IMG/VR virus record: IMGVR_UViG_3300005077_000012
Coordinates: 1 to 64,000 of that record
From: a virus
Lineage: Duplodnaviria; Caudoviricetes
DNA: 64,000 nucleotides
Reading direction: 5' to 3' (one strand)
The notes under the pieces: model-generated
The model's database searches: none
Told to the model about the DNA's origin: nothing
What the model saw: the letters and a program-made list of their open reading frames with translations, nothing else
Translations under genes and position numbers: made by a program
Part shown: positions 1,608 through 60,536 of the stretch, piece after piece
Layout: every line of letters begins with the position of its first letter
Numbering within the stretch: position 1 is the first letter of the stretch

Positions 1608-2528
1608 TTACTCGGAAATAAATTTTTTTCCGAATATTTTTTTGACCTCAGCCGCAGATAAATCATTCGGGTCCCGACCCTCCGGCAACCTGACTGAAAA
1701 CGCCGGGACATACCGACGAACCGCTTCAATCCCAGCCGCCGTCGCATCCCGGCCCGCGCGATCGTTATCGTACGCGAAGACAACACGCCGGGCATGGCGA
1801 TACAGCAGAACCGCCTGCTGATCCGTAATCCCCGACGTCCCCATCGTACTCACTGCCGGAACCCCGCACTGCTGCAGCCACATACAATCGATCTCTCCCT
1901 CGACCAGTATCAAATACGGCAGACGCCCGGGCCCGGACAACAACACATCCAGCCCGAACAGGGCCTCCCGCCCGGACTGTGGCTTCCGCGTCTTCGGTAT
2001 GCCCCCATCAACGTGCCTCCCGGCCCACGTCACCAGCTTCCCCCGGGTATTCCGAACCGGAATGATCACCCGGTCCTCCCACTCATCGTGCTCACCCCAG
2101 CGGACGCCGAAGGTGTGCAAAATATCTATAGACAGCTTGCGCGACCTCATGTACGCCTCACCGGGAGTCCCGTCTATCGGACGAAAGGTCCGCTCAAACC
2201 ACGCCCGCTTAAAATACCGGACCGGCTCAACCTCCTCCCCCCCAAAGAAAAAGTCCTCCAGATTCTCGACGACGTGCGATACCCGCTCAGACTCCAACAA
2301 CATCCGCCGGACATCGGCTACGGGCACCCCCTTTACCTCCGCCAGAAACTCGGCGAACGACGCTACCTTGCGGCATGAAAAGCAATAGAACTTCCCCCGT
2401 GTGGTATGCACCTCCGCTGACGGCTCTTCGTCACCGTGAAACGGACACAGAACCCGAACATTATCGACCCCGTACATCCCGTACGTATCGATCCCGTGCC
2501 GCTCCAGCTCAAGCAGGTAATTCACCAT
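1608..2528 (-). CDS. dnaG: DNA primase (CHC2 Zn finger + TOPRIM)
   Basis: CPFHGD..PS...F.CFSC zinc finger, LVEGEIDC and YDNDRAG TOPRIM motifs; start moved to ATG 2528 (GGAGG upstream). Confidence 0.9.
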   Translation of the reverse strand: MVNYLLELERHGIDTYGMYGVDNVRVLCPFHGDEEPSAEVHTTRGKFYCFSCRKVASFAEFLAEVKGVPVADVRRMLLESERVSHVVENLEDFFFGGEEVEPVRYFKRAWFERTFRPIDGTPGEAYMRSRKLSIDILHTFGVRWGEHDEWEDRVIIPVRNTRGKLVTWAGRHVDGGIPKTRKPQSGREALFGLDVLLSGPGRLPYLILVEGEIDCMWLQQCGVPAVSTMGTSGITDQQAVLLYRHARRVVFAYDNDRAGRDATAAGIEAVRRYVPAFSVRLPEGRDPNDLSAAEVKKIFGKKFISE

Positions 2529-2868
2529 CCGCCTCCAACGCCCGGTGCAGCGCATACGTATACAACCAGACATCCCGAAACTGATCTACGGTCCCTACCA
2601 GCGGGAACGCTCCGAACTTCACAACGATCTCACCATCCCCCAGCGTTATCAGACTCGTCGCCGTACGCATCACCGTAACACCGAGCGCGTTGTAGCACGG
2701 GATCGTCGCATACACATCAAGCTCCGGGTACGAAAACCCGACCTCACCAACCGGCTCATCAACGATAACCGGAACATATCGAACCTTGTACCGCTCCTCC
2801 AACCGCGCAACGATGAACGCCTGCTCATCCATACTGCGATCCCCCAAACAGAACCCAACTTCGATCAT
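2509..2868 (-). CDS. Hypothetical protein
   Basis: 119 aa ORF in operon orientation, AGAGG upstream, overlaps primase start. Confidence 0.6.
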   Translation of the reverse strand: MIEVGFCLGDRSMDEQAFIVARLEERYKVRYVPVIVDEPVGEVGFSYPELDVYATIPCYNALGVTVMRTATSLITLGDGEIVVKFGAFPLVGTVDQFRDVWLYTYALHRALEADGELPA

Positions 2869-2879
2869 ACCGCTGACCT

Positions 2880-3005
2880 CTATAATTTTATTTCAGACTG
2901 GATATCCAGCTTGTCGGACTTGCACTTCGGACAGACCTTGTAATTGTTTACACTCCGCCATATATGCCAGCACTTCAAACAGCAATAACTAAATATTTTT
3001 TTCAT
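2880..3005 (-). CDS. 41-aa zinc-ribbon protein (not in ORF track)
   Basis: Hand translation MKKIFSYCCLKCWHIWRSVNNYKVCPKCKSDKLDIQSEIKL; CxxC...CPxC; TGATG overlap with helicase stop; fills the gap exactly. Confidence 0.65.
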   Translation of the reverse strand: MKKIFSYCCLKCWHIWRSVNNYKVCPKCKSDKLDIQSEIKL

Positions 3006-4453
3006 CACGCCGTCGCCCTTCTCTGCTTCGTCTTCCGATCGCGCCGGGGAGTCATATCCTCACCCAACAGACGCAGGTCCTTCACGCCCAGAACCTCTTC
3101 GTGAATTCGCATATATTCCAGATTCGGCCTCAGTATGATGGACTTGTCCGGCAACTTCGCGTTCCGCATTTTGAGCACCTGCATCTCCAGCGTATGCTCA
3201 ACCTCCGCCTTGTCCGTCCGAACCAGACCAACCACCACCGGGGACGTCTCCGATATCCCCCGGGAATACTTCAGGTCCCCCAGAGATAACACATCAGACT
3301 CCAGTGCTTCATCTCGTAACTGCCCGGCAGTCCACCCGGCAATACCATCGTTGAAGTCTGCGACGAAGTCCTTGAACTCCCAGATCGCATCAGACTGCGC
3401 CGACCAGTCCTTCGACGCCCGGCCACGAACCACGTTAATCGGGTACAGGATGTTTATATAATCAAGCACAACCAGATCGAGCTGCCGCTTGTGCTTGTCC
3501 TGCACCCGCAGTGCTTCCGCCTCGACGTCGCTCATATCAAACCCCTTCGGAAAGGATACTATTTCGAGGAAATTTTCACGCCGCCCGCGCTCCTTCCGGA
3601 CGGCGCGCTCCCACACCTTCAGCGACTCATCCGACAACTCACCCGAGCGGAACCCCGACGCCGGGATACCGGCCACCATGCTGTCAATCCTGAACTCGAT
3701 GTCAATCTTGCCCATCTCTCCGGACACGAACAACACACTCCGATCATGGAACCACGCATTGACCGCGAAAGACGCCAGAGCCGCCGTCTTGCCGATCGAC
3801 GGACGACCTCCGATAACTCCGAACTCCTTGCGCATGATACCGCCGGTCAGACGGTCGAACGCTCCGATCCCGGTCAGGACACCAACCTCTCCCCCGTCCT
3901 CGCGGAGCTTCCGCCGTTCCGCGATCACCTCAACCCGGGACTCGTACCCCTCAAGGTATTCCCCGGCCTTTGTGTTGTCCTTCACCGCAACCGGGGACCC
4001 GAGATCGCGGAGCGTCGCCTTCACGTCATCCAGAGAGAACGTCCCGGTCCGAACCGTGCTCACCACGTCGCGGAGACTGTACATGATCCGTCGACTCTCG
4101 TACATGGTCAGCAGGTCTTCGATCGCGACCTTGACCCCCTTCTCGCTCAATCGATCCGTATCCACAGAAAACACATCGTCGAGCACCGCAGCATACGTCG
4201 CCTCATCCGTGGTCGACGCACCGCGCTTCTTCAGCTCGCGAACGATCGAGCTCCGGGATACGATCGCCTTCAGGTCCTTCACCAGAGCGATGATGTCCCC
4301 AATGAGCTGCGATCCGAACCACTCAACCTCAACCAGCGCCGCCATTGACGTATTCTTGCGAACAAGAAACGCTGCGACCTCCGTCTCGATATCGTTGTCT
4401 CTGAATTTCGACTCGATGACTTCAGACAGTTTATCACTCCCCTTATCTCCCAT
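3005..4453 (-). CDS. dnaB: Replicative DnaB-like helicase
   Basis: Walker A GGRPSIGKT, Walker B LVVLDYINIL, C-terminal KMRN motif. Confidence 0.9.
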   Translation of the reverse strand: MGDKGSDKLSEVIESKFRDNDIETEVAAFLVRKNTSMAALVEVEWFGSQLIGDIIALVKDLKAIVSRSSIVRELKKRGASTTDEATYAAVLDDVFSVDTDRLSEKGVKVAIEDLLTMYESRRIMYSLRDVVSTVRTGTFSLDDVKATLRDLGSPVAVKDNTKAGEYLEGYESRVEVIAERRKLREDGGEVGVLTGIGAFDRLTGGIMRKEFGVIGGRPSIGKTAALASFAVNAWFHDRSVLFVSGEMGKIDIEFRIDSMVAGIPASGFRSGELSDESLKVWERAVRKERGRRENFLEIVSFPKGFDMSDVEAEALRVQDKHKRQLDLVVLDYINILYPINVVRGRASKDWSAQSDAIWEFKDFVADFNDGIAGWTAGQLRDEALESDVLSLGDLKYSRGISETSPVVVGLVRTDKAEVEHTLEMQVLKMRNAKLPDKSIILRPNLEYMRIHEEVLGVKDLRLLGEDMTPRRDRKTKQRRATA

Positions 4454-5999: not shown

Positions 6000-6455
6000 T
6001 TACGATAATGACGCTTGTGCAGTCTGTTTGATGTCACGCACGATCTGAGCGACCCGGGACTGTGACAATCCCAGCGACTCACCGATCTGCTTCTGGTACT
6101 TCCCTGCCAGCATCCCGTCATAGACCGCCCGGGCCTGCTCAGACAATCGGGCCCTGAATTCCTGAATGAACAGGCGGTCCACAACCTCAGCCTCACAGGA
6201 CGGTTGATACATTACTGCGTGCAGTCGCAGGTACTCCCCATGCGCCCGGTTGCGTGTCGCATACCGTTTGATTATATTCGTTGTCCGCGTTGATAGTACC
6301 TTGCGCAGGTAGTGATCCCACGCACCCCTCGATGCGTCGTACGTCGCGGTGACCTCAAGGACGATCATCCGGACCTCTTGCCGGGCGTCATCCACCTCCA
6401 GTGGCGATCGACTCGCCAATTTTCGTGCAAATTGTTCAACAATTTTGTCTTCCAT
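6000..6455 (-). CDS. Phage sigma-70-family (ECF-like) RNA polymerase sigma factor
   Basis: Region 2-like DDARQE...YDASRGAWDHYL and region 4 HTH KQIGESLGLSQSRVAQIV; ATG 6455 preceded by GGAGG. Confidence 0.75.
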   Translation of the reverse strand: MEDKIVEQFARKLASRSPLEVDDARQEVRMIVLEVTATYDASRGAWDHYLRKVLSTRTTNIIKRYATRNRAHGEYLRLHAVMYQPSCEAEVVDRLFIQEFRARLSEQARAVYDGMLAGKYQKQIGESLGLSQSRVAQIVRDIKQTAQASLS

Positions 6456-6516
6456 GTTCCTCCATCTCAATCTGTATATATCATAACCAATAGGGGATAT
6501 CGGTTATGTCAGGTAT

Positions 6517-6546
6517 ACTATAACGATGTCGTTAGAGGACCGTCAA
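6517..6546 (-). promoter_or_regulatory. Sigma70-type promoter of the replication operon
   Basis: TTGACG (6541-6546), 18 bp, TATAGT (6517-6522), upstream of the sigma factor gene. Confidence 0.7.
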
Positions 6547-6577
6547 GCATTTTTTTCATCGGTGCGAAGTTTTTGTG

Positions 6578-6606
6578 TTGACGATAACGCCGGTATACAG
6601 TATATT
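6578..6606 (+). promoter_or_regulatory. Divergent sigma70-type promoter
   Basis: TTGACG (6578-6583), 17 bp, TATATT (6601-6606). Confidence 0.6.
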
Positions 6607-6897: not shown

Positions 6898-7413
6898 TTA
6901 AAATGTGTATTGTAAGATTGCACTCATCTGAAAGAGCTTCACCGTGGTCAGGAGACCGGACCCATACCCGACCTCCCCGCCGATACCGAACGCCCCACGG
7001 TGCCGGATGTACCCGACCCCCAGACCCGGGGCTGCATCGAACTGCCCCGGAAGAACCACCCCGGAGAACAGGGCCCGGGCGTAGACTGTATGCTTCGGTA
7101 CCGGACAGTCGAATACCATCCGGTACTTCTGCTCGGTCTGCTTACACTGATCAGAACAGGTGATCATGGTCTTCGGTTCACCATCCTCCACGATATCGCG
7201 GTGCTGGATGACAATGTGGTCCCCACAGGACCGCCAGTCCCACCCCGGGACATTTTCCGGTGGTGGTTTCGGCGTGGTCCGGGCCGGGCCTTCCGGCACC
7301 AGAGCCCCGCCGTCAGGGACCGCTTCCCGATCACGAACGTAGTACCCTGCAAAAAAACTCGAAATGCACAGGGCAATCAGGGACGCCCCCCACACCTTCG
7401 TCGATCGTTTCAT
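6898..7413 (-). CDS. Membrane protein (spanin-like or envelope protein)
   Basis: N-terminal hydrophobic helix, Pro-rich linker, Cys residues, C-terminal beta-strand-like region ending LQYTF; follows holin. Confidence 0.55.
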   Translation of the reverse strand: MKRSTKVWGASLIALCISSFFAGYYVRDREAVPDGGALVPEGPARTTPKPPPENVPGWDWRSCGDHIVIQHRDIVEDGEPKTMITCSDQCKQTEQKYRMVFDCPVPKHTVYARALFSGVVLPGQFDAAPGLGVGYIRHRGAFGIGGEVGYGSGLLTTVKLFQMSAILQYTF

Positions 7414-13804: not shown

Positions 13805-13838
13805 TCAAATACCCCTTGCAAAATATCTATAGATGCCG

Positions 13839-21867: not shown

Positions 21868-21888
21868 TGCAAATTTTCTATAGACGGG

Positions 21889-24043: not shown

Positions 24044-24056
24044 AGCTATCTCCTAT

Positions 24057-24290
24057 TTATAGATTTTTTGCACGCTCATCCCACTCTTCCTTCGTCCGGA
24101 TAACCAGATCAGGATTCGTGGCGTTAATCCACGCGCGTTGATACTTGTCCCACGTAGGGCAGTAGCGTTCGAGATATTCCCTGAGTGACATCCCTCCCTG
24201 CACCGCCTGTGGTGGGCTCTGGACTTCTTGCTGCACGCCTTCAGACGGTTCAGCGAAGTCATCGAACTCCGTTACCTTTTTCTGCGCCAT
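24057..24290 (-). CDS. Hypothetical protein
   Basis: 77 aa between tail terminator and sheath. Confidence 0.6.
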   Translation of the reverse strand: MAQKKVTEFDDFAEPSEGVQQEVQSPPQAVQGGMSLREYLERYCPTWDKYQRAWINATNPDLVIRTKEEWDERAKNL

Positions 24291-25070: not shown

Positions 25071-25945
25071 GCGTCAACCCCCTTCGCCCGGGCAATGTCA
25101 GTCTCGAACGCGTCCGCGATTGCCTGATCAGTGATCGGCCGCATCGTATCTACAACTGCCTGCCTGATCGGTATCGGGTCTTTCTTCGGAACGATCCACG
25201 AAGCAGGATCGCTACGCATGGATACCACGCGGAACGTAATGTACGACGAACTCTTCGCCTTCTGCGTATTCGCCTGCATCCGCACCATGCTGGATCGCTT
25301 GCCTGCGGTCCATGTATACGTGTCGGACACCGGACGGCCGTACGCCTGCGATAGTTTCTTCTGCATCTCCGGGGATATCTTCTTCGTCTCCGGGGCCCCG
25401 GACGACCCGAGCCGGTCACCCCATCTATAGGTATTTCGCACGACCCCTTTCACGTCGGTATACTGCCCGGTGACCTTACTCTGACTGAATTTATTGACCA
25501 TATTGTACACGTTCAGGGGCATCGGTTTGTTGGTCGACAGGGTCCCCGGAACCCCATGACGGAAGGCCACGATATTGTAGGGCCCGTTCGCCCCGGTTCG
25601 CGCCTTCGGGCCGGACAACAGGCCCGGCTTCAGATCGATCTCTTGATGACCGTCTTCGATGTACTTGTGCGCCTTGTAATCAGTGTAAATCACCTTCTCC
25701 AGATCGTTGCTCAGGTCCACCTGTATCGACTTCGCGTACTCACCCCTGCTGTTTATCACCCGGGGGCCGCCCGAGGTCGGTATCGGAGCTCCCAGCGCAT
25801 ACCTGCGCCACGTCTCCTGATACATCTTCGCGAGATCATTCAATCGATCCACAACCGTCGGGAACGCCTGCCTGACGGTCTTATCAGACATCAGGGCTGC
25901 AAACCCGGGGATGTGAACACCGACGCCGACCTTCATTTCTGCCAT
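25067..25945 (-). CDS. Neck / tail completion protein, putative
   Basis: Basic protein with SRGEYAKSI...YIEDG motif reminiscent of neck-1/HK97 gp10-like proteins; position. Confidence 0.5.
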   Translation of the reverse strand: MAEMKVGVGVHIPGFAALMSDKTVRQAFPTVVDRLNDLAKMYQETWRRYALGAPIPTSGGPRVINSRGEYAKSIQVDLSNDLEKVIYTDYKAHKYIEDGHQEIDLKPGLLSGPKARTGANGPYNIVAFRHGVPGTLSTNKPMPLNVYNMVNKFSQSKVTGQYTDVKGVVRNTYRWGDRLGSSGAPETKKISPEMQKKLSQAYGRPVSDTYTWTAGKRSSMVRMQANTQKAKSSSYITFRVVSMRSDPASWIVPKKDPIPIRQAVVDTMRPITDQAIADAFETDIARAKGVDA

Positions 25946-39506: not shown

Positions 39507-39538
39507 GTGCTACCTCATCTATAGATTTTTTGCACGGC

Positions 39539-41313: not shown

Positions 41314-41347
41314 GCACTCTCCCATCTATCTATAGAAAAATTGCACG

Positions 41348-47447: not shown

Positions 47448-47906
47448 TTATTCGACCTCGGACTGTAACGCATCCGAGACAGCGTCTGCAAAATTCCTCG
47501 AAACGCCCTCCAGCTCCTCGACCGCAGCCTCAAGATCGGCCTCGGCCTGCGCCTCGATCGGGGCCGTCAGGTGCTCGGGAATACCGAGGTCCTTCGGCTC
47601 CGTCAGGTCAGAGGTCCCCTTCAACATCCCGTCAACCTCCTCCCGGGTCTTCAGCCCGAGACGGACGGCCGCATACTTACTCCACTTCTCAGAATTCGCC
47701 GGGTCGTAGAAAACAACCGTCAGCGATCGCGACCCGTCATCGAAGTAACACTCCACGCCATTCCCGTACGAGTCAGACTTGAAATACGGACAGGCCCCGC
47801 ACTCCACGTTCAAAAACTCTTGTGTCAACTTGACGATCTTGTCGACATGGAAGCAGTACACCTGCCCCGACGCATCCGCCAGATTGATATGGTTCGTCCT
47901 TGCCAT
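47448..47906 (-). CDS. Hypothetical Cys-containing protein
   Basis: 152 aa, GGGAGG RBS, C..CP.F...G.EC.F motif, acidic tail. Confidence 0.65.
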   Translation of the reverse strand: MARTNHINLADASGQVYCFHVDKIVKLTQEFLNVECGACPYFKSDSYGNGVECYFDDGSRSLTVVFYDPANSEKWSKYAAVRLGLKTREEVDGMLKGTSDLTEPKDLGIPEHLTAPIEAQAEADLEAAVEELEGVSRNFADAVSDALQSEVE

Positions 47907-50834: not shown

Positions 50835-51968
50835 TCATGCGCCCGCCTGCTTTGCCATCGCAGCGTCGAGCATATCATAGTATTTCTTCATACCCGGCGT
50901 ATACCGGGTCCATGTACACCTGCAGTGCGGGTGTTGCGTCCCGGCAGCAACCCACCACTCCCGGGCCTTCCGTCCAAAATTGTTCTTACCCGGCCAGATC
51001 GCGGTATACCGGGTCCCGTCAACCTCTATCGTATCATCACCACCGGACGGGGCCGCATCCAGCAGCACCACGATCCGTCCGTTGATGTGTGTGGCACAGA
51101 ACGTACAGGCCCCCGGCCCGGACACCCCACGCATGAACACGAACTCATCCGGAGACGTCACCTTCTCGGCCACCAGATACCCGTTATTAAAATTCGTCGC
51201 GGTCTCGGTCTCCGCGATCCTGCGCCAGTCCCGGTTGAGTGTTGAGAACGTATCGAACAGCTTCCGCTCGGTCTCCCGGGCCGTCAGGCGGTTCTTCTGC
51301 GCGTCCAGTATGGACGACACCACCGCCCGGCGCGCGCTGTCCGATATATCCTGTATCAACTCCCCGGTATGCACTTCGGAGAAGTCCCTAATGTTCCGGT
51401 AGACCTCGTCGGCCGTCAGCTTCTTTACCTCGGCGTCGACAGCAGGTTTCAGGTCAGTATACGTCTTGCTGATCTGGTCCTCGACCGGCATCCCCTGTAA
51501 TATCTTACCCAACGCCATCGCCCGAAGGACCAGAGACTGCTCGACCTCACCGAACAGGTACCCGAAAACACTGTCCAGATCGTGTGCAATCACCTCCCAC
51601 TCCGCCCGGGTCAGGGCCTGCCCGGTCGACGGGTTTATGTACGTCGTCCCGTTCAGGATGAACGGATCATCCCCCACGGCCTTGCGAAATTCATCGAAAT
51701 GGTCCCCCATCCCCTTCGCGACATCCAGCCTCAACCACTTCGTCGTAATCTCAGTCAGGACCCGCTGCAGCCCCGCCCGCACCTGATCCCGCAGAATATC
51801 GCTGAGCTCCTGCAGGGCCGGGTAGGGCGTCGGCTCGGTTTTCTCGGTATGGTTGTGTGCAACCTCGGCCGGGACCTTCAGGGCCTTCGACAGGGCCTCG
51901 ACGACTGCCCGGAGCTTCTGCTCCGCCTTGTCTTCCGGATTGTGTATCTCAATTATGATCTTTTCCAT
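50835..51968 (-). CDS. MuF / SPP1 gp7-like head morphogenesis protein
   Basis: RRIAETET...FNNG, C.FC, HPHCRC.W motifs. Confidence 0.85.
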   Translation of the reverse strand: MEKIIIEIHNPEDKAEQKLRAVVEALSKALKVPAEVAHNHTEKTEPTPYPALQELSDILRDQVRAGLQRVLTEITTKWLRLDVAKGMGDHFDEFRKAVGDDPFILNGTTYINPSTGQALTRAEWEVIAHDLDSVFGYLFGEVEQSLVLRAMALGKILQGMPVEDQISKTYTDLKPAVDAEVKKLTADEVYRNIRDFSEVHTGELIQDISDSARRAVVSSILDAQKNRLTARETERKLFDTFSTLNRDWRRIAETETATNFNNGYLVAEKVTSPDEFVFMRGVSGPGACTFCATHINGRIVVLLDAAPSGGDDTIEVDGTRYTAIWPGKNNFGRKAREWWVAAGTQHPHCRCTWTRYTPGMKKYYDMLDAAMAKQAGA

Positions 51969-52088: not shown

Positions 52089-54440
52089 TCAGAACAGTCT
52101 GTGCCGGAGCCCGACCACATACGCCAGACGCCGGATCGCTTTCAGCAGTTTCGGCCCGAAATGCTTTTTCAACAGGCCCTCGAACTTCCCGTCCTCAAAC
52201 ATCGCATAGGTCGGATCGACCTCCGGGAACCCCCAGCCGAACGGATTGTCCGCCGCGTCCCCCACCGCATCCATACGCTCGTCCGTCGTCGTATACTCCG
52301 GCTGCTTCGCCTTGTACCGGATAAACTGGTCAAAGGTCCGGGCGAACACCTCGTTGACGTCGCCCCAATACCGGGACCGCTTCGAGTAATAGTCGGAGTG
52401 TGTCTGCTTGCGGAATGAGTGTACGGTAACCTCGGACAGGTGCTGTGAATACATCTCGAACGCTCGGTCCACAACCTTTGCCGGTGCAAAACGTACCCGG
52501 TCAACGATCGATTTCAGATCGTCCACAGAATAGACTCCCTTCGTCTCCGATACGATCGCAGGACCATGCTTGTCCGGGTCATTCAACGCATTGCGCAGCG
52601 TCGAAAGGAACTCATCCGGCGTAACGGTTCCGTACCGATCATCCGCCTGATTAGCGTTGTGGAGCATGGCACGCAGGCTCGGCTCAACGATCTCAACGAA
52701 CTTCAGGACATCCAGACCCTTACGCCCGGCAAGGTCCGGGTGCGCCGTCAGGTACCCGCCGATTTCCGACAACGCCACGGCAGACGACTGATCGATGTAC
52801 GTCTTGAACGCCGCATGAGACGGATTGAATGTCTCCTTGATCTTCTGCTCAAGACCAGACGCCTTGACCCACTCCTTGAACTCGTCGACCAACACCTTCC
52901 CGCCCCGGTAAAAAAAGTAATGTCCCGCTTCGTGTACGATCGCCCCCGGGTACGACGGGGAGATATTCAACGAATGGTCCTTCTCGACGTAGAACCCGGC
53001 CGCCTTCTTCGACGCCTTCGCAATCCGCAGGATCATCTTCTTCCCGTCTGACGGAACGTAGTCCTTGAAATTGACCACGGACGAGATCGTCGAGAACACC
53101 TTGAACAATGCCCGCAGGCTCGGGGCCGACAGCTTCGCCTCCCTCCCGGGGATGATCGCATCGGTTGTGATCTCCAGACCGATCTCATCCCGGAACGCGG
53201 TGACGAGCTTCGCAATCTTCGGATCAGTCGCCATCAGGTGATCTTTATACCCGGCGGTCCCCTTGACGTACTTCATGATCCGCTTCTTTGAACTCTCATC
53301 CGCGAACTTGTTCAGGACCCCCTCGATCTTGTCGTACGGTATCGGAATGTACGGCAGAACGAGGATCGAACGCCGCGTCGGATTGACATCGGAGAACTGG
53401 AGTCCAACCCGGCCGTCAGTCATCACCATCGAACCGGTTATCCCCAACTTCCCGATCGGCTCACGCTGCATCGCATTGTAGGATTGCCTCAACTGCGCAG
53501 CGGCGGCAGTCGCATAACGCAGATTGGATATGGCGTTCCTCGAAGGAACATCCAGACCGGACTGCACACTCTCAAGGGCCATCAGGTCCTGATACAAGGT
53601 TCCCGCCGCGCCGATCGACTTCGAGTCCAACAGGCCGTCCTCGAAGTCCTTGAGCTGCTTCCACCCGGTATAAAAGTCTGCCGCGTCCGGCGGCTGCACT
53701 TTCTCCCGAACCGCGTCCGGGAGCGCGTCGAGTTTTTGCTGCAGGCTCTCCAGAACGGCCTTCAGCGCATACTCCATCGACGGAGCCGACTCATAATCCC
53801 ACGTTGCCGACATCGCGGCCTCGGCGTCCAGCCCGGGAACCTTCTTTTCCTCAGCCTTCTTCGGAACCACCTTCGGTTTCTCCGGCTTCGGCCGCGTCCA
53901 CATCGCCACCGACGGCCGCCCCATAATCTTCTCATCATCGTCCAACTGCACCCGGTCCCACGTCACGATCTCAGCGTTGGCGTCCTCCTTGCTCAGGCGG
54001 AAGCGTTCCTGCGCCTCCTCCAGTGTCAGGTTGTCATACTCGGTAACCGGGCTGCCGTCGACGTGCACAACGAACACACGGTGCGTGTTCGCACGCTTCG
54101 CCTTCGGAGCATCGGGCTTCTTCACCTCCGGGGCCTTCGACCCTTCCATGAGCTTGTGCTTCAGTACATATTTGACGATATCGGTGTCGCCCTTCAGGTC
54201 GTGCCCGACTTCGGCCTTCACCTTCTCGATGATCTCTTTGCGTCGGTCCGCAGTGAGCTTCGCCCACCAGTCGAGAACCTTTGCACGCTCAGGCCACGGC
54301 CGGGCACCCTCATGCACCCCATCAACGACCTCAACCCACTTCTTATCCGACGCCTTCCGATACTTCCGACCCTTCCATTCCCGGATCGTACCAACCGGGT
54401 ACGCCTTCCCTTTGATCATCAGTCTATAGATTTTTAGCAC
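52089..54440 (-). CDS. Head-associated zincin metallopeptidase / LPD1-like polyvalent-type protein
   Basis: IVHEAGH (HExxH) and downstream EVFARTFDQF; N-terminal tag module; GTG start with GGGGAG RBS. Confidence 0.7.
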   Translation of the reverse strand: MLKIYRLMIKGKAYPVGTIREWKGRKYRKASDKKWVEVVDGVHEGARPWPERAKVLDWWAKLTADRRKEIIEKVKAEVGHDLKGDTDIVKYVLKHKLMEGSKAPEVKKPDAPKAKRANTHRVFVVHVDGSPVTEYDNLTLEEAQERFRLSKEDANAEIVTWDRVQLDDDEKIMGRPSVAMWTRPKPEKPKVVPKKAEEKKVPGLDAEAAMSATWDYESAPSMEYALKAVLESLQQKLDALPDAVREKVQPPDAADFYTGWKQLKDFEDGLLDSKSIGAAGTLYQDLMALESVQSGLDVPSRNAISNLRYATAAAAQLRQSYNAMQREPIGKLGITGSMVMTDGRVGLQFSDVNPTRRSILVLPYIPIPYDKIEGVLNKFADESSKKRIMKYVKGTAGYKDHLMATDPKIAKLVTAFRDEIGLEITTDAIIPGREAKLSAPSLRALFKVFSTISSVVNFKDYVPSDGKKMILRIAKASKKAAGFYVEKDHSLNISPSYPGAIVHEAGHYFFYRGGKVLVDEFKEWVKASGLEQKIKETFNPSHAAFKTYIDQSSAVALSEIGGYLTAHPDLAGRKGLDVLKFVEIVEPSLRAMLHNANQADDRYGTVTPDEFLSTLRNALNDPDKHGPAIVSETKGVYSVDDLKSIVDRVRFAPAKVVDRAFEMYSQHLSEVTVHSFRKQTHSDYYSKRSRYWGDVNEVFARTFDQFIRYKAKQPEYTTTDERMDAVGDAADNPFGWGFPEVDPTYAMFEDGKFEGLLKKHFGPKLLKAIRRLAYVVGLRHRLF

Positions 54441-54441
54441 G

Positions 54442-55260: not shown

Positions 55261-58002
55261 TTAAATCCGGACCCACTGATCCGCTGCTTCTTTCCTGTAA
55301 CTCACCCCGGCGCGGGAACGCTGCGTCCCGATCGGGAGTGCTCCGCCCCGGTTGAGCTGCCAGTAGCGCTCCTCACGCTTGATACTCTTCGCGAGATCGT
55401 CCGGGAGCTCCTGCGACTTCTTCGCTTTCGCCTCACGGAACTTCTTCGCCACGAACGTCCCGGCGGCGTCAATGCTGGAGAACTCGCCCTGACTCTCCCC
55501 ACCACGCTCCACGGACACTTTACCGGAACCGTCGGTGTGCTTCTTCACGGACCACCACTCACCGTCAGGACCTTTTACTGTACCCGATGAATCTCCTTCC
55601 ATACTCTCAAGGATACCCTCGGCCTCGGCGGACAACCCGTCGTCCCCGGCAGGCTTCGCATCGGACTCATGTCTCTCTCCAGACGACACACCGTAGTTCT
55701 TCACATACTTCTCCACCGCCTCTTTAACAGTCTTTGACTGCGCCGTCGTCGAAAGGTAATGGAGCCGCTTTGTATCCGGGTCCTTATACCCCAGATCGAT
55801 CTGTCCGTGATTGGTCTTCCACCCCTTGATTGTATCCAGATTGATCTGAGGGTCTTTGACTCCCAGCTCCTTCAGCTTGTTTAAAATCGGACGTGCGTTA
55901 TACTTCGACCCACCACCAGCAGCGGGCTTGCCCTCTTTCACAGGCTCCCACTTCCCGGCAGCGACCTTCTTGTACTTCTTCCCCTTCCAGTCACGGATTG
56001 TCCCGGGCGGAAGTCCTCGGCCTTTGTTCAGCCAGACCACCGTGTCCTCCTTGCGCAGCTCCTCGATCGCCTTGCTCATGTCTTCCGTTTCGAGAAATTT
56101 TGCAGGCGTCTCTGCAACCTCAAGCTCCGCATCCGGAGTCGTCGTCCCCAGCCCGATATTCCGCTTCGCGTTCAACGTCAATTTCCACTCGTTCATAAAT
56201 TTCCTCGCCTTAAATAGTTTGCCCTGCCCTTCTGCCTCCATCGCAGCATCCCGGAGCTTCGACAGGTTTTTCTTCGCCTCTATATGTGTTTGTATCGCCT
56301 TCAGATCATCCGGATCAAGCTCCGACCGCAATGCCGCTTCAGGGACTTCCTTCCATCCCCCGGTCCTCGATGAATGATCATAGTACTCGGCCTCGACTTT
56401 GCCCTCGGCAGTCACCCGGTACCCATTCGCGTCCAGTATGTCCTTGATTGACTCAGGGTCCGCATCTGCCTTCGCCTGATCGTACCGCTCCTGCGCCGAC
56501 CCGCCGCGCTTCTTCTCCGCACGCTTCCCGGACTCATGCTTCTCGCGCTCGGCAGCCAGCTCCTTCTCCATCCGGGCCTTGTCATCCGCATCGCGCTTCG
56601 CCTGCGCTGCGTCGCGCTCGGCCTGCGCCTTCTTACCCGCCTCGTATTCCCCGGGAAGCTCGTCGATCCTCTTGCTGACCTTGTCCGCACCCTGCTTCTC
56701 GACGATCTTACCCAGCGCATTGATCGCCTTCTGCCTGCCCCCCAGCTCCCGGACAACCAGCATCCCGGTCTTCTTGTCAACCAGAGCGTACCCGGCCTTC
56801 CCGGACGGGAACGTCATGTCAAACCCCCAGAACTCCCGGTCAAGGTCCTTCACCTTCGCGGGTTTCATCGACGTACCCTCGGGGACCTTCACCACATTCC
56901 CCATGTGATCCGACACCTCGGTCGGGGCCTTCTCACCTTTCGCTGCGCCCTTGTCCGATTTCTTCACGGCAGCACCGGCCTGCTTGCTTGCCTCGGCAGC
57001 CCCGGCCACACCGCCGCCTTCGCTCGTCGCCTCGACGGTCTTCGCCGCGCCCTTGACGGCGGCCTCACCTTTGCCCGCAGCCTCTTTGATCCCACCCGCA
57101 ATGTCCTTAACCGAATCAGATATGCTCTGTGAACTCGACGTCGACGCCTGCTTCTTTAACCGCTCCAGCATCGCGTCCAGATTGGACTTGTCCTCACTGT
57201 CCGGCAGGTTCTTAATGTCCGACTTCAGCTTCTCATACGTCGCATCCCCGAGCTTCCCGCCCGTCTTCGGGGCCGCATCAGAATCACGCCCTCCCGTACG
57301 CACCGCCTTTACCGCAGCCTTCACCTGCTCATCAGAGGCCCCGGGCTTCAACTTCCCCGTAATTTTGTTAAGTGTATCCACGTCGAGTCCGATATAGTCA
57401 TTGCTCGCAGAATCCTCCGCGCTCCACGCCCGCATAACACGGTTCTCCAAAACCGTCTTTTCACCTTTATCCATCTGGGGCTCCCCAGCCTGCGCATCAC
57501 CTTCAGGCTCGCCCTTCGCTGCACCCTTGCCACTCTTCACGCGCACCCAGCCGGTGTCTCCCTTGCGGTACTTCTTTCCCTTCCATTCCCGGATAGTCCC
57601 GACCGGCAACGCCTTCCCCTTCTCCAGAGACTCCAGCTCTCGCAGACTCTTCGCTGCACTCTCCATCCTATCAAGACGGGTGTAATAGTCCGGTATCTCG
57701 GCCAGATGATCCCGCGCAATCTTCTCGGCCAGCTTCGGGTCATCGGTGTGCTCGGCCTCGACCTCGATCCCACGCTTCAACTGCTCCGGGTCCGGGCTCG
57801 TCTTCGCGGTCTGACTCCGGCCCTTACCAATGAAAGACCCCAGAATCGCATAGATCATCTCCTCGACCCCGTGCTTGTTCCACCCATGCGCCTCGGCCCA
57901 CTCATGGACCTCGTAGTCCTCCGGCTTCGGGTTCTCACTCAAGAATCGCTCAACCTGCAGCCTGCTCGGGCGTGCCTTATCGAGTTTTTGTACGCGTATC
58001 AT
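55261..58002 (-). CDS. Large Lys/Ala-rich head-associated protein with DUF5661-like N-terminal domain and three tag modules
   Basis: G..VE.EH..D...A.KIA.DHL.E.PDYY.RL motif (family recalled from memory); three P.GT modules. Confidence 0.65.
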   Translation of the reverse strand: MIRVQKLDKARPSRLQVERFLSENPKPEDYEVHEWAEAHGWNKHGVEEMIYAILGSFIGKGRSQTAKTSPDPEQLKRGIEVEAEHTDDPKLAEKIARDHLAEIPDYYTRLDRMESAAKSLRELESLEKGKALPVGTIREWKGKKYRKGDTGWVRVKSGKGAAKGEPEGDAQAGEPQMDKGEKTVLENRVMRAWSAEDSASNDYIGLDVDTLNKITGKLKPGASDEQVKAAVKAVRTGGRDSDAAPKTGGKLGDATYEKLKSDIKNLPDSEDKSNLDAMLERLKKQASTSSSQSISDSVKDIAGGIKEAAGKGEAAVKGAAKTVEATSEGGGVAGAAEASKQAGAAVKKSDKGAAKGEKAPTEVSDHMGNVVKVPEGTSMKPAKVKDLDREFWGFDMTFPSGKAGYALVDKKTGMLVVRELGGRQKAINALGKIVEKQGADKVSKRIDELPGEYEAGKKAQAERDAAQAKRDADDKARMEKELAAEREKHESGKRAEKKRGGSAQERYDQAKADADPESIKDILDANGYRVTAEGKVEAEYYDHSSRTGGWKEVPEAALRSELDPDDLKAIQTHIEAKKNLSKLRDAAMEAEGQGKLFKARKFMNEWKLTLNAKRNIGLGTTTPDAELEVAETPAKFLETEDMSKAIEELRKEDTVVWLNKGRGLPPGTIRDWKGKKYKKVAAGKWEPVKEGKPAAGGGSKYNARPILNKLKELGVKDPQINLDTIKGWKTNHGQIDLGYKDPDTKRLHYLSTTAQSKTVKEAVEKYVKNYGVSSGERHESDAKPAGDDGLSAEAEGILESMEGDSSGTVKGPDGEWWSVKKHTDGSGKVSVERGGESQGEFSSIDAAGTFVAKKFREAKAKKSQELPDDLAKSIKREERYWQLNRGGALPIGTQRSRAGVSYRKEAADQWVRI

Positions 58003-58240
58003 GTTTCTTGCCTCGCTTTGATTTTTTCATGCTTGAACCTGTATGACTAACGAGTGCCAGAACCTCCGGGATCGGAGAGCACCTGAGACACCCGTAAATA
58101 TAATTCCCAACACCGCCATGCCACGGACCAACTTCCACCCTGAACATCCACTCCCAGCGGAACGAACGCTCACACAACACACACCGTCTCCTCCGAAACG
58201 TGAACACCCTGTGCACCCGGGTCGGCCCACCAGCACGCAC
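57977..58240 (-). CDS. Small CxxC-containing hypothetical protein
   Basis: CVLC...CLRC; start uncertain. Confidence 0.4.
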   Translation of the reverse strand: MRAGGPTRVHRVFTFRRRRCVLCERSFRWEWMFRVEVGPWHGGVGNYIYGCLRCSPIPEVLALVSHTGSSMKKSKRGKKHDTRTKTR

Positions 58241-58506
58241 TACAGGACCTCCATCAATATCCCGCAGTACTGACCCACGTACAGCTCGCGCTCCACCGGT
58301 CCCTCGAACGGGCTATCGTACGTCAAGACCCGCTGCTTGTCCGACTCGACAAGGTCCTCGGGCCCGACCTGATCCCCATCCACATCACAATTCGCTCCGA
58401 CATAAAACGCATCCGGGTCCAGCGTCTCATACCATGCACCCATCCCGATCAGCGTGCGATTTTCCTCGATACCGCGCCAGTACTCCACAATGTTATACGC
58501 CATCAC
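58240..58506 (-). CDS. Hypothetical protein
   Basis: 88 aa acidic ORF with overlapping start/stop coupling. Confidence 0.6.
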   Translation of the reverse strand: MMAYNIVEYWRGIEENRTLIGMGAWYETLDPDAFYVGANCDVDGDQVGPEDLVESDKQRVLTYDSPFEGPVERELYVGQYCGILMEVL

Positions 58507-60536
58507 CGCAACTCCCGCATTATAGTCTGATAGATCGTCTCGAAGTGTCCGTTCCAGATCGCTCCACCCTGATCGTACTTCATGAAATTGGCCTTGAACT
58601 TCTTCATGCCTTCAACCCCGTCCTTCTGGACGACCTGATTTTCAAGGAACCGCTTTTTCTGTTCAGGCTTCAGCTTGTATACATACTGCAGGTTGTCCCG
58701 TATATGCTGATCAGTCTCCGGCGTCGTCTTATATCCCCGGGCAAGGAACTTGAACGACCTGAGCGTATAGCGCGGAGAGTGTGGTAACATCTTCGGATTG
58801 CAGAACTCCAGCGTCTTGCCCTCCAGTGCCGAGAGACCCTTCCCGGTCGCATCAATCATCACCCCGGTCAACGGGTCCAACTGCAGCGAGTTGATCGTGA
58901 AGTCCCGGGACTCAGCGTCGCCCTTCAGCCGCCAGCCCTTGACCTGCCACGATGGAACGTCGTCAGAGTGTTTGTGGACCGGCGTGATATCCACATCGAC
59001 CCCGGCGTCCTTGATAGTCACCAACCCCAGCCGGTCATTCAACGACCACGTATTCGCCCACGCCGGATTGAGTCCCTTGACTATGTGCTGCAGCTCGCCG
59101 TCAGAGCAGTTCGCAATGAAGTCAACATCCTTCGAGTCCCCGCCCTGCAGGAAGTCCCGGACGGTCCCACCCACGATCGTCAACGTGAACCCGGCAGCCT
59201 TGAACGTCTCACACAGCTTCCGGTACGTCACCTTCGATTTACCAATACGCGTCTCCATGACCTTCGCCACCGACGCGGCCATCTCCCCAGAGATATGAAA
59301 CAGGTTTTTATCTTCCAAACCATCATACAGCGAGTGCTCCTGTATTACCCCGTCAGGCTTAACGTTCTGCCAGCGTGAGTCGATCACCCGGCCATCGCTC
59401 ATCTTGATCAGTGCAGTTCCCTTGTTCCCCAGAGCAACCAGCTTCCCACGCTGACCGGAATACTTCTGGTGCCCCTGCCCGGTATAGACCACACTCTGCC
59501 CCTCGATCATCCGGTCCCGACGCGTGGTATCCTTTATCAACTGCTGCGCGGCCCCGGCGGCCACATCCTGCAGCTTCCCCACCTTGACACTGACCGCATG
59601 GTCCTGTAGCGCCTGCGCCGCTGCCTTGTTCTGCGCCGGTGTCGGGGCCTTCGCGCCCGGGTTTACCACACCGTCGTACAGCCACTTCCCGTCTGCACCC
59701 TTCTTGTACCAATAGTTCCCGTACTGCTTGCGTGTCCCGATCGGATCGCCGCCCTTCTGCATTTCGAGATATTTTGCAGGCCCGAACCGCATCGTCCTGA
59801 AATTAAACAAAGGGACCATCATCCCGATCCCCTTCGATAGATCATCCAGATCATCAGCACTCTTCTTGTACCCCAGCCGCTCGCTCAGGGCTTCCTTCGC
59901 GGCCTGCTTGCGCTGCGCATCCCGCTCAGCCCACTGCGAACCCTTTGCGCTCTCGTCCGGGCCCTTCGCCGGAGCTTCGCCATCCTTCACCTTAACAATC
60001 TTCACCGCGCCCTTGATCGACTGGACGTTCCCCTGACCTTCCGGGGCTTCAGGATTGAAACGGGTCTGCCACTGCATCGCGAACTTGCCATCCCGGGAAT
60101 ACAGCCGCTTCTGCTCATGGTCCAGACGCCCACCCCGGAACAACTTCCGGGACTCGTCCCCCAGCTCGCCCATCGCCTCCTCAAACCGGTGCGACAGCTT
60201 CGCAGGCGTGTTCACGTACGCCGTCGCCATGTCTTCCTTGTCCTCAGTGGACATCTCCCCGGACGACGGGTCCCCGGGCTTGTCCGATCCACCCCCGGGA
60301 CGCTCGGCACCCTTTTCCTTCCCAGCACCCAGCGGGGACCACTGCCCCTCGGCAACCTTCCGATACTTTGTTCCACCCCAATCAGCAACGGTCCCGACAG
60401 GCATCCGCTTGCCCGCCTTCACGAACGCCTCCGCGTCAACGCAGTTAACCCCGTGGTACACAGGGCCAGACAGGTCGTCTATCATTTCGAGAATTTTTGC
60501 AGGTGCCACAACCGGAAAGTCTAATATTCGTGCCAT
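58503..60536 (-). CDS. Head-associated class II (CCA/poly(A) polymerase-type) nucleotidyltransferase
   Basis: IVGGTVRDFL...KDVDF, DAESRDFTINSL, PRYTLRSFKF; two tag modules and a KOW-like segment upstream. Confidence 0.85.
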   Translation of the reverse strand: MARILDFPVVAPAKILEMIDDLSGPVYHGVNCVDAEAFVKAGKRMPVGTVADWGGTKYRKVAEGQWSPLGAGKEKGAERPGGGSDKPGDPSSGEMSTEDKEDMATAYVNTPAKLSHRFEEAMGELGDESRKLFRGGRLDHEQKRLYSRDGKFAMQWQTRFNPEAPEGQGNVQSIKGAVKIVKVKDGEAPAKGPDESAKGSQWAERDAQRKQAAKEALSERLGYKKSADDLDDLSKGIGMMVPLFNFRTMRFGPAKYLEMQKGGDPIGTRKQYGNYWYKKGADGKWLYDGVVNPGAKAPTPAQNKAAAQALQDHAVSVKVGKLQDVAAGAAQQLIKDTTRRDRMIEGQSVVYTGQGHQKYSGQRGKLVALGNKGTALIKMSDGRVIDSRWQNVKPDGVIQEHSLYDGLEDKNLFHISGEMAASVAKVMETRIGKSKVTYRKLCETFKAAGFTLTIVGGTVRDFLQGGDSKDVDFIANCSDGELQHIVKGLNPAWANTWSLNDRLGLVTIKDAGVDVDITPVHKHSDDVPSWQVKGWRLKGDAESRDFTINSLQLDPLTGVMIDATGKGLSALEGKTLEFCNPKMLPHSPRYTLRSFKFLARGYKTTPETDQHIRDNLQYVYKLKPEQKKRFLENQVVQKDGVEGMKKFKANFMKYDQGGAIWNGHFETIYQTIMRELR

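What the first reader, a model, noticed from the sequence alone, without database searches (positions are those of the whole stretch)
2116..60501. Genome-wide 17-bp bipartite DNA motif TGC-W7-CT(ATAG/CGAA)A on both strands
There are 16 copies. Class A (CTATA(G/A)(A/T)): + 2116, 13817, 21868; - 24056, 25424, 26062, 28466, 39518, 41329, 54423. Class B (CTCGAAA): + 7348, 47487; - 50647 (TGT), 56088, 59762, 60485. Nine copies fit TGC-W7-CTATA exactly; a rough estimate at ~42% AT expects about 0.003 in 128 kb of both strands (the motif was defined post hoc). Copies fall in different frames, on both strands and in short intergenic gaps (13817, 21868), and several abut or overlap RBS/start codons (sheath, 39506, 41313, 54440). 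The 7-bp spacer is too short for a sigma70-family -35/-10 pair. Candidates are stoperator-like repressor sites, sites for the phage sigma or another activator, or genome-organising/packaging sites. Caveat: three class B copies encode PAK[FYI]LE in frame near the cargo tags, so protein-level selection could contribute there.
Basis: seen in the sequence. Interest (0 to 1): 0.85.

Follow-up and report, generated by a model that had tools for sequence, protein, structure and literature searches.

The report
Dispersed 20-bp phage DNA signal
An uncultured 87-kb tailed phage keeps about 30 copies of one 20-letter DNA word on both strands, between and inside genes. Two relatives hold many copies at the same places, so it is a selected DNA-level signal, but what reads it is still unknown.

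Summary
All 16 listed copies exist, plus two weaker ones in the window (3578-, 51683+), giving about 29 in the 87,219-bp record. Dinucleotide shuffles give none. A codon-preserving shuffle gives 3.5 in-gene hits against 19 observed.

The full motif is C-S-TGCAAAAWWTCTATARA-Y-G, with no conserved flanks. The closest relative found (TerL 74% identical) also has 29 copies. Of these, 13-15 lie at orthologous positions in the same orientation, with 86% identity in the motif against 47% in the flanks. A third relative (TerL 58%) carries a variant core, TTTCTAGAAA. More distant relatives have none.

The two "classes" are one motif. CTCGAAA is the form used where CTATAR would create an in-frame stop (20 of 24 cases); all 13 intergenic copies are CTATAR.

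Every gene lies on one strand, yet copies are 16 sense and 13 antisense. Some sit just after start codons. This argues against a simple promoter set.

Function is unresolved:
- orientation-free binding site of a phage-encoded protein acting on transcription: about 0.33
- promoters of the phage sigma factor, including antisense ones: about 0.30
- DNA-processing marks: about 0.2

Earlier runs of this scan noted comparable two-strand motifs in crAss-like phages.

The parts
2116..2132 (+). Motif copy, CTATAGA core, antisense, inside the primase gene
   Evidence: Exact match. Orthologous copy in the relative at REL 58414, same orientation.
3562..3578 (-). Weaker motif copy (TGAAAATTTCCTCGAAA), sense, inside the DnaB-like helicase gene
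   Evidence: 17.4 bits. Orthologous stronger copy at REL 56249. Lies in the frame where CTATAR would give a stop.
7348..7364 (+). Motif copy, CTCGAAA form, antisense, near the 5' end of gene 6898-7413
13817..13833 (+). Motif copy, CTATAGA core, antisense. It fills the 34-bp gap between a stop codon and the ribosome-binding site of gene 13130-13804.
21868..21884 (+). Motif copy, antisense, intergenic just after the tail-tube gene, directly preceded (in its own orientation) by a G+C-rich hairpin
   Evidence: Orthologous at REL 40419, hairpin included.
24056..24072 (-). Motif copy (CTATAAA), sense, ending 12 nt before the sheath gene start at 24043
   Evidence: The relative has a degenerate copy (11.1 bits) at the same place.
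25424..25440 (-). Motif copy (TGCGAAATACCTATAGA), sense, inside gene 25067-25945
   Evidence: TAT AGA codons.
26062..26078 (-). Motif copy (CTATAAT), sense, inside gene 25945-27069, 116 nt before the next start
28466..28482 (-). Motif copy, sense, near the 3' end of gene 28373-30727. It uses the rare codons CTA and AGA.
   Evidence: Orthologous at REL 33805.
39518..39534 (-). Motif copy, sense. It fills the 32-bp gap before the ribosome-binding site and GTG start of the 719-aa gene.
   Evidence: No copy at the corresponding place in the relative.
41329..41345 (-). Motif copy, sense, intergenic, directly preceded by a terminator-like hairpin and followed by a ribosome-binding site and start
   Evidence: Orthologous at REL 28715, where the flanks do not align.
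47487..47503 (+). Motif copy (CTCGAAA), antisense, 44 nt upstream of the -35 box of the conserved sigma-70-type promoter at 47442-47414
   Evidence: The orthologous copy REL 22162 has the CTATAAA form.
50647..50663 (-). Motif copy (TGT..CTCGAAA), sense, near the 5' end of the PARP-domain gene, 9 nt before a tag module
51683..51699 (+). Weak motif copy (TGCGAAATTCATCGAAA), antisense, inside gene 50835-51968
   Evidence: 11.1 bits. Orthologous stronger copy at REL 16890.
54423..54439 (-). Motif copy, sense. It overlaps the GTG start of the 783-aa gene (the ribosome-binding site lies upstream of it), 9 nt before a tag module.
   Evidence: Orthologous at REL 14729.
56088..56104 (-). Motif copy (CTCGAAA), sense, inside the 913-aa gene, 63 nt before a tag module
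59762..59778 (-). Motif copy (CTCGAAA), sense, inside ORF 58503-60536, directly before a tag module. At the same place in the relative a separate gene begins.
60485..60501 (-). Motif copy (CTCGAAA), sense, 35 nt after the ATG at 60536 of the first gene after the portal
   Evidence: Analogous copy at REL 6198.
6000..6470 (-). Phage sigma-70-family (ECF-like) sigma factor gene, first gene after a strong sigma-70-type early promoter. One candidate reader of the motif.
   Evidence: TIGR02937 E 1.5e-10, 41 bits (cut-off 42.9), full length. Pfam r2 and r4 matches are weak. 35% identical to the relative's sigma. No sigma detected in the motif-less relative G001.

Best explanation
The motif is one asymmetric duplex-DNA recognition site of about 20 bp: C-S-TGCAAAAWWTCTATARA-Y-G. 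The invariant bases T1 G2 and C11 T12 lie one helical turn apart across an A/T tract.

Shown: the site is under purifying selection at about 30 fixed places in the genome.

Inferred: a phage-encoded sequence-specific DNA-binding protein reads it in either orientation. I take the sites to act on RNA polymerase traffic along the single-direction gene array, as an operator or roadblock network. That resembles stoperators in effect, but without their orientation rule. Most sites sit between a stop codon and the next ribosome-binding site, just inside gene starts, or inside long genes.

Candidate readers, on weak evidence: the 72-aa HTH_17/MerR-like protein at record position 69897-70115, or the HTH domain of the phage sigma factor.
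For: Selection on DNA:
- 0 copies in shuffles.
- 19 in-gene hits against 3.5 after a codon-preserving shuffle.
- Rare codons are imposed.
- 13-15 of 29 copies are orthologous in a relative with TerL 74% identical, at 86% motif identity against 47% in the flanks; the motif is kept even where intergenic flanks no longer align.
- A third phage has a co-varying core, TTTCTAGAAA.

Orientation-free use:
- All genes lie on one strand, but copies are 16 sense: 13 antisense here and 17: 12 in the relative.
- Antisense copy 13817 fills a stop-to-RBS gap just as sense copy 39534 does.
- Two antisense intergenic copies are conserved (21868/REL 40419 and 69454/REL 82559).

Not promoters of the adjacent gene:
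- Several copies lie after the ribosome-binding site and start codon (54440, 60536; REL 6175, 7626, 14728).

Site anatomy:
- Two invariant blocks 10 bp apart across an AnTn tract.
- Palindromic tendency in the 3' half: TCTATAGA here, TTTCTAGAAA in L157.
- Sites are retained in a degraded core form where the best core would create a stop (20 of 24). This suggests that position matters.

A possible reader:
- A small HTH_17 protein is shared by the three motif-bearing phages and was not found in motif-less relatives.
Against: - No binding data of any kind.
- The link to the HTH protein rests on three genomes that are also each other's closest relatives.
- The phage looks lytic: no integrase, partition gene or recognisable repressor. 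A genome-wide silencer has no obvious purpose in such a phage.
- A strictly one-sided extension (TGCA) is unusual for a dimeric HTH protein.
- No other candidate late-promoter motif was found, which leaves late transcription unexplained if this motif is not the promoter.
- Sense copies do sit in front of the sheath gene and other late genes.
Confidence: 0.33

Rival explanations
1. The motif is a phage-specific promoter used by host RNA polymerase carrying the phage sigma factor. Transcription would start at the conserved purine at position 16 or 17. TG at positions 1-2 and AAAAWW would then lie where an extended -10 element lies. Sense copies would drive late genes; antisense copies would make antisense RNAs.
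For: - A sigma gene sits directly behind a strong early promoter.
- The motif-less, 95%-complete relative G001 has no detectable sigma.
- No other dispersed motif was found that could serve the 55-kb late region, which has a single sigma-70-type promoter.
- Sense copies end 10-22 nt before the starts of the sheath gene, the 719-aa gene, the connector cluster and gene 74840-75142, with the ribosome-binding site in between.
- Two conserved hairpin-plus-motif pairs look like a terminator followed by a restart.
- The motif is AT-rich in a 55% G+C genome, with R at 16, A at 17 and Y at 18.
- Precedent: phiEco32 sigma gp36 uses promoters with only a short element near -10 (PMC12276001).
Against: - 45% of copies point against every gene, and these are conserved as strongly as the sense copies. 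I know of no one-directional phage genome with such a promoter set (my own knowledge).
- Several sense copies lie just after a start codon that has a good ribosome-binding site.
- Many copies sit mid-gene in replication enzymes.
- There is no -35 block, although the sigma has a region 4.
- The sigma is only 35% identical between two phages whose motifs are nearly identical.
- ATG at positions 17-19 is equally common in sense and antisense copies, so it is not a start-codon signal.
Confidence: 0.3
2. The motif marks places where an enzyme works on the DNA itself: site-specific nicks, RNA- or primase-primed replication starts on both strands, or recombination hot spots used by the phage's RecA/SbcCD-type machinery.
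For: - Both strands are used. Density is about one copy per 3 kb in all three phages (29 copies in 87.2 kb, 29 in 86.0 kb, 7 strong copies in 20.2 kb). Copies sit in any reading frame. All of this fits a genome-wide rather than a gene-specific role.
- The phage encodes RecA, SbcCD, a Holliday-junction resolvase, a 5'-3' exonuclease, a primase, a DnaB-type helicase and PolA.
- Earlier follow-ups in this scan compared similar two-strand motifs in crAss-like phages with nick-associated motifs (leads only).
Against: - The nick motifs described for T5, phiKMV-like phages and tf are 7-19 bp and lie on one strand only (PMC3517423).
- No nickase or recombinase gene was recognised.
- The strong excess in tiny intergenic gaps is not predicted. 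The same holds for the link to 5 of 7 tag modules.
- Strand polarity around the genome is not significant (p 0.078) and is absent in the relative.
Confidence: 0.2
3. The copies are conserved linker sequences at which related phages exchange modules by recombination, as proposed for the promoter/stem-loop cassettes of T4-type phages. They would have no function of their own in a single infection.
For: - Motif plus tag forms the conserved 5' junction of cargo modules whose downstream domains differ between the two phages: the 783-aa LPD1 protein here against a 580-aa ART-PolyVal protein there.
- Copies at 39534 and 28482 bracket the low-G+C tail-fibre block that the relative lacks.
- Six copies lie within 125 bp of an edge of a homology block.
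Against: - Most copies lie well inside homologous blocks, many within conserved enzymes.
- Second-order selection for recombination would not hold 86% identity at single sites against 47% in the flanks. Nor would it impose rare codons.
Confidence: 0.07
4. The motif is a by-product of protein coding (a repeated peptide such as PAKxLE) or of composition, with no DNA-level role.
For: Six sense copies share the frame xxT GMA AAW WWY CTC GAA. Four of them (56104, 59778, 60501, 68459) read AKxLE.
Against: - Copies occur in all frames, on both strands and in 9-13 intergenic places.
- The codon-preserving shuffle removes most in-gene copies.
- Rare codons are used.
- Intergenic copies are conserved where their flanks are not.
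Confidence: 0.02

Closest known systems
Stoperators of Cluster A mycobacteriophages (L5, Bxb1); from my own knowledge
   Same: A short asymmetric site in about 25-35 dispersed copies across one phage genome, enriched in short intergenic gaps. It is read as DNA and affects genes genome-wide rather than a single operon.
   Different: Stoperators keep one orientation relative to transcription and serve an immunity repressor of a temperate phage. Here orientation is mixed (16:13 and 17:12), more than half the copies lie inside genes, and no repressor or integrase was found.
Promoters of phage-encoded sigma factors: phiEco32 gp36 (AATGTA centred at -11.5; PMC12276001) and T4 late promoters (TATAAATA; my own knowledge)
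   Same: A phage sigma gene is expressed early. The element is AT-rich and TATA-containing with no -35 box, and it lies in front of late genes. Some copies read TATAAATA exactly (24072; REL 28715, 58414, 78944).
   Different: The motif carries far more information (about 27 bits over 20 bp). Nearly half the copies are antisense to all genes, and some lie after start codons. If TATARA were the -10 element, transcripts would start after the ribosome-binding sites.
Promoters of T7/SP6-type single-subunit RNA polymerases (my own knowledge)
   Same: A contiguous motif of about 20 bp ending in CTATA followed by a purine, as in SP6 (..CTATAGA).
   Different: No single-subunit polymerase gene was found in the genes scanned against Pfam or PHROGs. 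T7-type promoters all point with the genes.
Nick-associated motifs of T5, phiKMV-like phages and Pseudomonas phage tf (PMC3517423)
   Same: Dispersed conserved words at similar relative positions in related phages, inside and between genes, with function still unknown.
   Different: Those motifs lie on one strand only and are shorter. Whether nicks exist here could not be tested.
Operators of the P1 C1 repressor (17-bp asymmetric, AT-rich, more than a dozen dispersed sites; my own knowledge)
   Same: An asymmetric AT-rich site of 17-20 bp read by one protein at many scattered places in a large phage genome.
   Different: P1 operators overlap promoters of a temperate plasmid prophage. Here none of the six sigma-70-type promoters is overlapped by a copy.
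Two-strand dispersed 17-22-nt motifs noted by this scan in crAss-like phages (e1-3660519, e1-4680708, e1-3412864)
   Same: A word of about 20 nt written on both strands into unrelated genes with rare codons, kept at the same places in sister phages, with an unknown reader.
   Different: Different sequence and a different phage lineage. Those notes are unchecked AI reports. No even spacing or strand alternation is seen here (14 strand changes in 28 steps, counted by eye from the list).

Membership tests
Stoperator network (Cluster A mycobacteriophages) | Asymmetric 13-17-bp site in 20 or more dispersed copies in one phage genome | tested here: met
   About 29 copies of an asymmetric 20-bp site.
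Stoperator network (Cluster A mycobacteriophages) | One orientation relative to the direction of transcription | tested here: not met
   All genes lie on one strand. Copies are 16 sense: 13 antisense here and 17: 12 in the relative.
Stoperator network (Cluster A mycobacteriophages) | Cognate immunity repressor in a temperate phage | tested here: inconclusive
   No integrase or CI-like repressor in the Pfam, PHROGs or NCBIfam scans. Many small proteins have no family match.
Promoters of a phage-encoded sigma factor | Sigma-70-family gene in the phage | tested here: met
   Gene 6000-6470: TIGR02937 E 1.5e-10 over its full length, 41 bits against a cut-off of 42.9.
Promoters of a phage-encoded sigma factor | Sites point with the genes and lie upstream of them | tested here: not met
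   45% are antisense. Copies at 54439 and 60501, and at REL 6198, 7646 and 14729, lie after the start codon.
Promoters of a phage-encoded sigma factor | Transcripts start at a fixed distance from the motif | not testable with these tools
T7/SP6-type single-subunit polymerase promoters | Phage encodes a single-subunit RNA polymerase | tested here: not met
   No RNA polymerase family hit among the proteins scanned. No PDB sequence match for the 913- and 783-aa proteins. A very divergent enzyme cannot be excluded.
Nick-associated motifs (T5, phiKMV-like, tf) | All sites on one DNA strand | tested here: not met
   Both strands are used. The known cases are one-stranded (PMC3517423).
Nick-associated motifs (T5, phiKMV-like, tf) | Ligatable single-strand breaks at the motif in virion DNA | not testable with these tools
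   Needs virion DNA or raw reads.
Recombination linkers of T4-type phages (promoter/stem-loop cassettes) | Copies flank variable gene modules | tested here: inconclusive
   6 of 29 copies lie within 125 bp of a homology-block edge, and 39534 and 28482 bracket a foreign module. Most copies are deep inside conserved blocks.
Crossover sites of serine invertases (hix, gix, cix) | Two inverted 12-bp half-sites and a recombinase gene | tested here: not met
   Only a partial likeness to one half-site (TTCTTGAAA; comparison from memory). There is no second half-site and no recombinase hit.

The most novel reading that the evidence does not exclude
Lytic tailed phages of unrelated lineages (this one, and the crAss-like phages noted earlier in this scan) carry a previously undescribed kind of genome punctuation. 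It is a word of about 20 bp with a dedicated reader, kept at fixed positions on both strands, even inside essential genes. Where needed it takes a stop-codon-avoiding spelling. It would serve a DNA-level process that is neither an ordinary promoter nor an operator, for example two-strand site-specific nicking or priming.
Probability: 0.2. Interest if true: 0.8.

Novelty: new variant of a known kind. Interest (0 to 1): 0.6.

Why it matters
Dispersed, lineage-specific DNA words are usually the first handle on how an uncultured phage times its genes or processes its DNA. This motif is unusually well defined: about 27 bits, 29 copies, and orthologous copies in two relatives. It also breaks the usual rule that such signals follow gene direction. 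The finding that its second spelling exists to avoid in-frame stops shows that selection keeps the signal at particular places even inside enzymes. If a reader protein can be found, it would expose a regulatory or DNA-processing layer that ordinary gene annotation misses. It would also give a testable parallel to the two-strand motifs seen in crAss-like phages.

Tried and rejected

2. Close isolates: none. Megablast found nothing and TerL tblastn gave at most 26% identity.

3. IMG/VR and JGI relatives with TerL about 46-64% identical. The five IMG/VR records scanned whole, and the TerL-flank loci L158, L140, L011, L014 and L017, carry no copy above chance. A dyad scan of the three longest records (G001-G003) found no analogous dispersed motif. 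Apparent repeated 9-mers there were codon words or a tandem coding repeat.

4. Scanning all viral contigs for the exact motif gave only single chance matches.

5. Strand polarity or replichore-like switch: best two-arc split 23 of 29, permutation p 0.078, and absent in the relative. Rejected.

6. Terminator association: only two conserved hairpin-plus-motif cases among about 29 copies. Not general.

7. Leaderless-mRNA idea (ATG at motif positions 17-19): ATG is as frequent in antisense as in sense copies. The cargo ORFs start upstream of the motif with good ribosome-binding sites. Rejected.

8. Upstream activator site of the conserved promoter at 47442: the distance to the -35 box is 44 nt here and 48 nt in the relative, so helical phase is not kept. 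Not supported.

9. Sigma-54, ECF -35/-10 and MarA-box geometries were compared by hand with the column counts. There is no conserved GG at -24, no room for a 16-17-bp spacer, and the marbox spacing is off by one. Rejected.

10. TATA[AG][AG] is enriched 8-15 nt before start codons, but this is partly explained by upstream TAG/TAA stop codons. Not used as evidence.

11. Literature searches for the core sequence returned only primer hits.

12. The tRNA-like stretch near record position 71.1 kb was not confirmed by ARAGORN or Rfam.

Full report
**What is there**

The window is bases 1-64000 of an 87,219-bp IMG/VR virus record judged 96% complete. TGC-W7-CTATA occurs 9 times and TGC-W7-CTCGAA 4 times at the stated coordinates. 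Neither occurs in any of 100 dinucleotide-preserving shuffles. It also adds two weaker window copies (3578-, 51683+) and eleven copies beyond the window, about 29 in all.

Column counts show a bounded motif from position -1 to +20: C-S-T-G-C-A-A-A-A-W-W-T-C-T-(AT|CG)-A-R-A-Y-G-S. No conserved block lies within 45 nt upstream or 60 nt downstream.

**Genome context**

- Every gene I could call lies on the minus strand.
- Replication and packaging genes include a primase, a DnaB-like helicase and its loader, RecA, SbcCD, a helicase, a 5'-3' exonuclease, a UDG-fused family A polymerase and the large terminase.
- Virion genes include the portal and large proteins with PARP and poly(A)-polymerase-head domains, and the sheath, baseplate and fibre genes.
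- A small sigma-70-family factor is encoded at 6000-6470.
- Six near-consensus sigma-70-type promoters (TTGACt-17-TATATT, several with A/T-rich upstream tracts) serve the early genes. One of them lies directly upstream of the sigma gene.
- No RNA polymerase gene was recognised.
- No cultured phage is close.

**Is it more than chance or coding?**

Yes.
- Shuffling synonymous codons within each gene, which keeps every protein and each gene's codon usage, leaves 3.5 +/- 1.6 in-gene hits (maximum 8 of 300) against 19 observed.
- In-gene copies use rare codons: AGA 3%, CTA 2%, CAA 10%, GCA 16%, AAA 18%, GAA 23%.
- They occur in all three frames in both orientations.
- 12 of 31 hits are not fully inside a gene, although about 6% of the genome is non-coding.
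- Several intergenic gaps of 32-69 bp consist of little more than a stop codon, the motif and a ribosome-binding site.

**Relatives**

IMG/VR and JGI relatives whose terminase is about 46-64% identical were fetched. Those scanned carry no copy, and no analogous dispersed motif was found in the three longest.

A protein search found a terminase 74% identical on two Logan contigs of about 86 kb. I walked one contig in five overlapping loci and joined them. It is a phage from a metagenome and has the same gene order.

- It carries 29 matrix hits, 17 sense and 12 antisense.
- 13 of the 29 copies in this phage map onto a copy in the relative at exactly the corresponding position and in the same orientation. 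Two more are within 15 nt, and a degenerate copy sits before the relative's sheath gene.
- Across those pairs the motif is 86% identical and the flanks 47%. At intergenic pairs (41345/28715, 69454/82559, 75173/76607) the flanks no longer align, yet the motif is intact.
- A third phage (JGI contig, terminase 58% identical, 49% G+C) has seven strong copies in 20 kb. Its consistently different core, TGC-R-R-A-W-TTTCTAGAAA-Y, contains a 10-bp perfect palindrome. Its antisense copy in the terminase gene is orthologous to 73591 here.

So the signal is inherited, maintained by selection, turns over slowly, and changes its core between lineages.

**The two classes are one motif**

Pooling both genomes:
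- All 13 intergenic copies have the CTATAR core.
- 21 of the 25 in-gene copies where that core is allowed also have it.
- 20 of the 24 copies with CTCGAA or CTTGAA lie in exactly the frame, sense or antisense, where CTATAR would read TAG or TAA.
- One orthologous pair is CTCGAAA here and CTATAAA in the relative.

The changes needed are T14 to G, which removes the stop, and A13 to C or T, which avoids the very rare CTA codon. A15 and A17 are kept, and position 16 stays a purine. This ranks the bases by importance. It also shows that selection keeps a copy at a given place even when the best core cannot be written there.

**Link to the tag modules**

Five of the seven roughly 30-residue tags (K-G-x3-P-[VI]-G-T-..-K-Y-[RK]-K) are preceded, 6 to 66 nt upstream, by a sense copy. 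The same holds in the relative at 6198, 7646, 11362 and 14729. The copy at 54439 is in a different frame from the others, so the link is at the DNA level.

The open reading frames concerned begin 6-12 codons before the motif and have good ribosome-binding sites. These copies therefore lie just inside the genes. The domains downstream of motif plus tag differ between the two phages. One ORF here (58503-60536) is two genes in the relative, with the second gene's start just upstream of the motif.

**What it most likely does**

A promoter set is the commonest explanation for a dispersed phage motif, and it has real support:
- The phage has an early sigma gene, and a motif-less relative has none.
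- No other motif was found that could serve the late region.
- Sense copies sit before the sheath gene and other late genes.
- Two conserved hairpin-plus-motif pairs exist.
- The geometry fits: a start at the conserved purine at 16/17 would put TG at -15/-14.

Three observations count against it:
- Orientation is effectively random relative to a one-directional gene set in both genomes. Antisense copies are as well conserved as sense copies, including in unconstrained intergenic DNA.
- Several sense copies lie after the start codon of the gene they would have to serve.
- An antisense copy (13817) occupies the same kind of stop-to-RBS gap as a sense copy (39534).

One mechanism that covers all copies is an orientation-free protein-binding site. 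The anatomy fits a protein reading two major grooves on one face of the helix: two invariant blocks one helical turn apart across an AnTn tract, and palindromic tendencies in the 3' half. I therefore rank this first, acting on polymerase traffic, at about 0.33. The promoter reading follows at about 0.30, DNA-processing marks at about 0.2, and recombination linkers at about 0.07.

The nick motifs described so far are one-stranded (PMC3517423), so membership of that family fails on a defining feature. A two-strand variant cannot be excluded.

Candidate readers are weakly indicated. One is a 72-aa HTH_17/MerR-like protein shared by the three motif-bearing phages and absent from the motif-less relatives around the terminase. 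The other is the sigma factor, which is only 35% identical between two phages with near-identical motifs.

**Limits**

No transcript, binding or DNA-end data could be obtained. Gene starts come from my own simple caller and from the collection's gene calls for the relative. The co-occurrence arguments rest on very few genomes, and those genomes are phylogenetically nested. The scan has noted comparable two-strand motifs in crAss-like phages. Those are unchecked leads and were not used as evidence.

Noticed in passing
window 6456-6897 and 47414-47442; also record gaps 72354-72443, 68029-68200, 66914-67009, 65019-65075 (L009): Six near-consensus sigma-70-type promoters (TTGACt/g-17-TATATT), several with long A/T-rich upstream tracts, serve the early genes. 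The one at 47442-47414 is conserved base for base in the relative.
   Followed up: partly
window 30727-37362: A tail-fibre block, low in G+C from about 32 kb (47% against 55%), has no counterpart in the closest relative and no motif copy. It looks like a recently acquired host-range module. Motif copies at 39534 and 28482 bracket the wider variable region that contains it.
   Followed up: partly
window 58503-60536: This is one 677-aa ORF here (N-terminal part plus poly(A)-polymerase-head nucleotidyltransferase) but two overlapping genes (484 and 437 aa) in the relative. The junction is at motif copy 59778 and its tag.
   Followed up: partly
window 50546-60419: The seven tags share the consensus K-G-x3-P-[VI]-G-T-[IR]-[RK]-x-[WY]-x-G-x-K-Y-[RK]-K-x3-G-x-W. 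The effector domains behind the tags differ between this phage and its relative (LPD1 here, ART-PolyVal there).
   Followed up: partly
window, all gene starts: TATA[AG][AG] hexamers are enriched 8-15 nt before start codons here and in the relative (21 against 3.4 expected for TATA[AG] within 32 nt). This is partly because upstream genes end in ..TA TAG or ..TA TAA.
   Followed up: partly
L009 about 7135-7200 (record about 71.1 kb, outside the window): A 68-nt stretch ending GGGAGTTCGAGTCTCCCACTCTCCACA looks like a tRNA T-arm and acceptor end. ARAGORN and Rfam do not call it.
   Followed up: partly
relative contig, 64851-65059 and 66496-66691 (L148 about 7053-7261 and 8698-8893): Four to five iteron-like repeats (GAGCGRGTCA ... 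GAGRAAACC) in two gaps between the SbcC and helicase genes, possibly a replication origin. No obvious counterpart was seen at the corresponding gap here (record 82296-82574).
   Followed up: no
relative contig, helicase gene (L146 568-3675): The relative's helicase carries an intein with a LAGLIDADG domain (1035 aa against 494-551 aa here).
   Followed up: no
window 62733-63533: N6/N4 DNA methyltransferase gene (PF01555, E 5.5e-23) with no counterpart in the closest relative.
   Followed up: no
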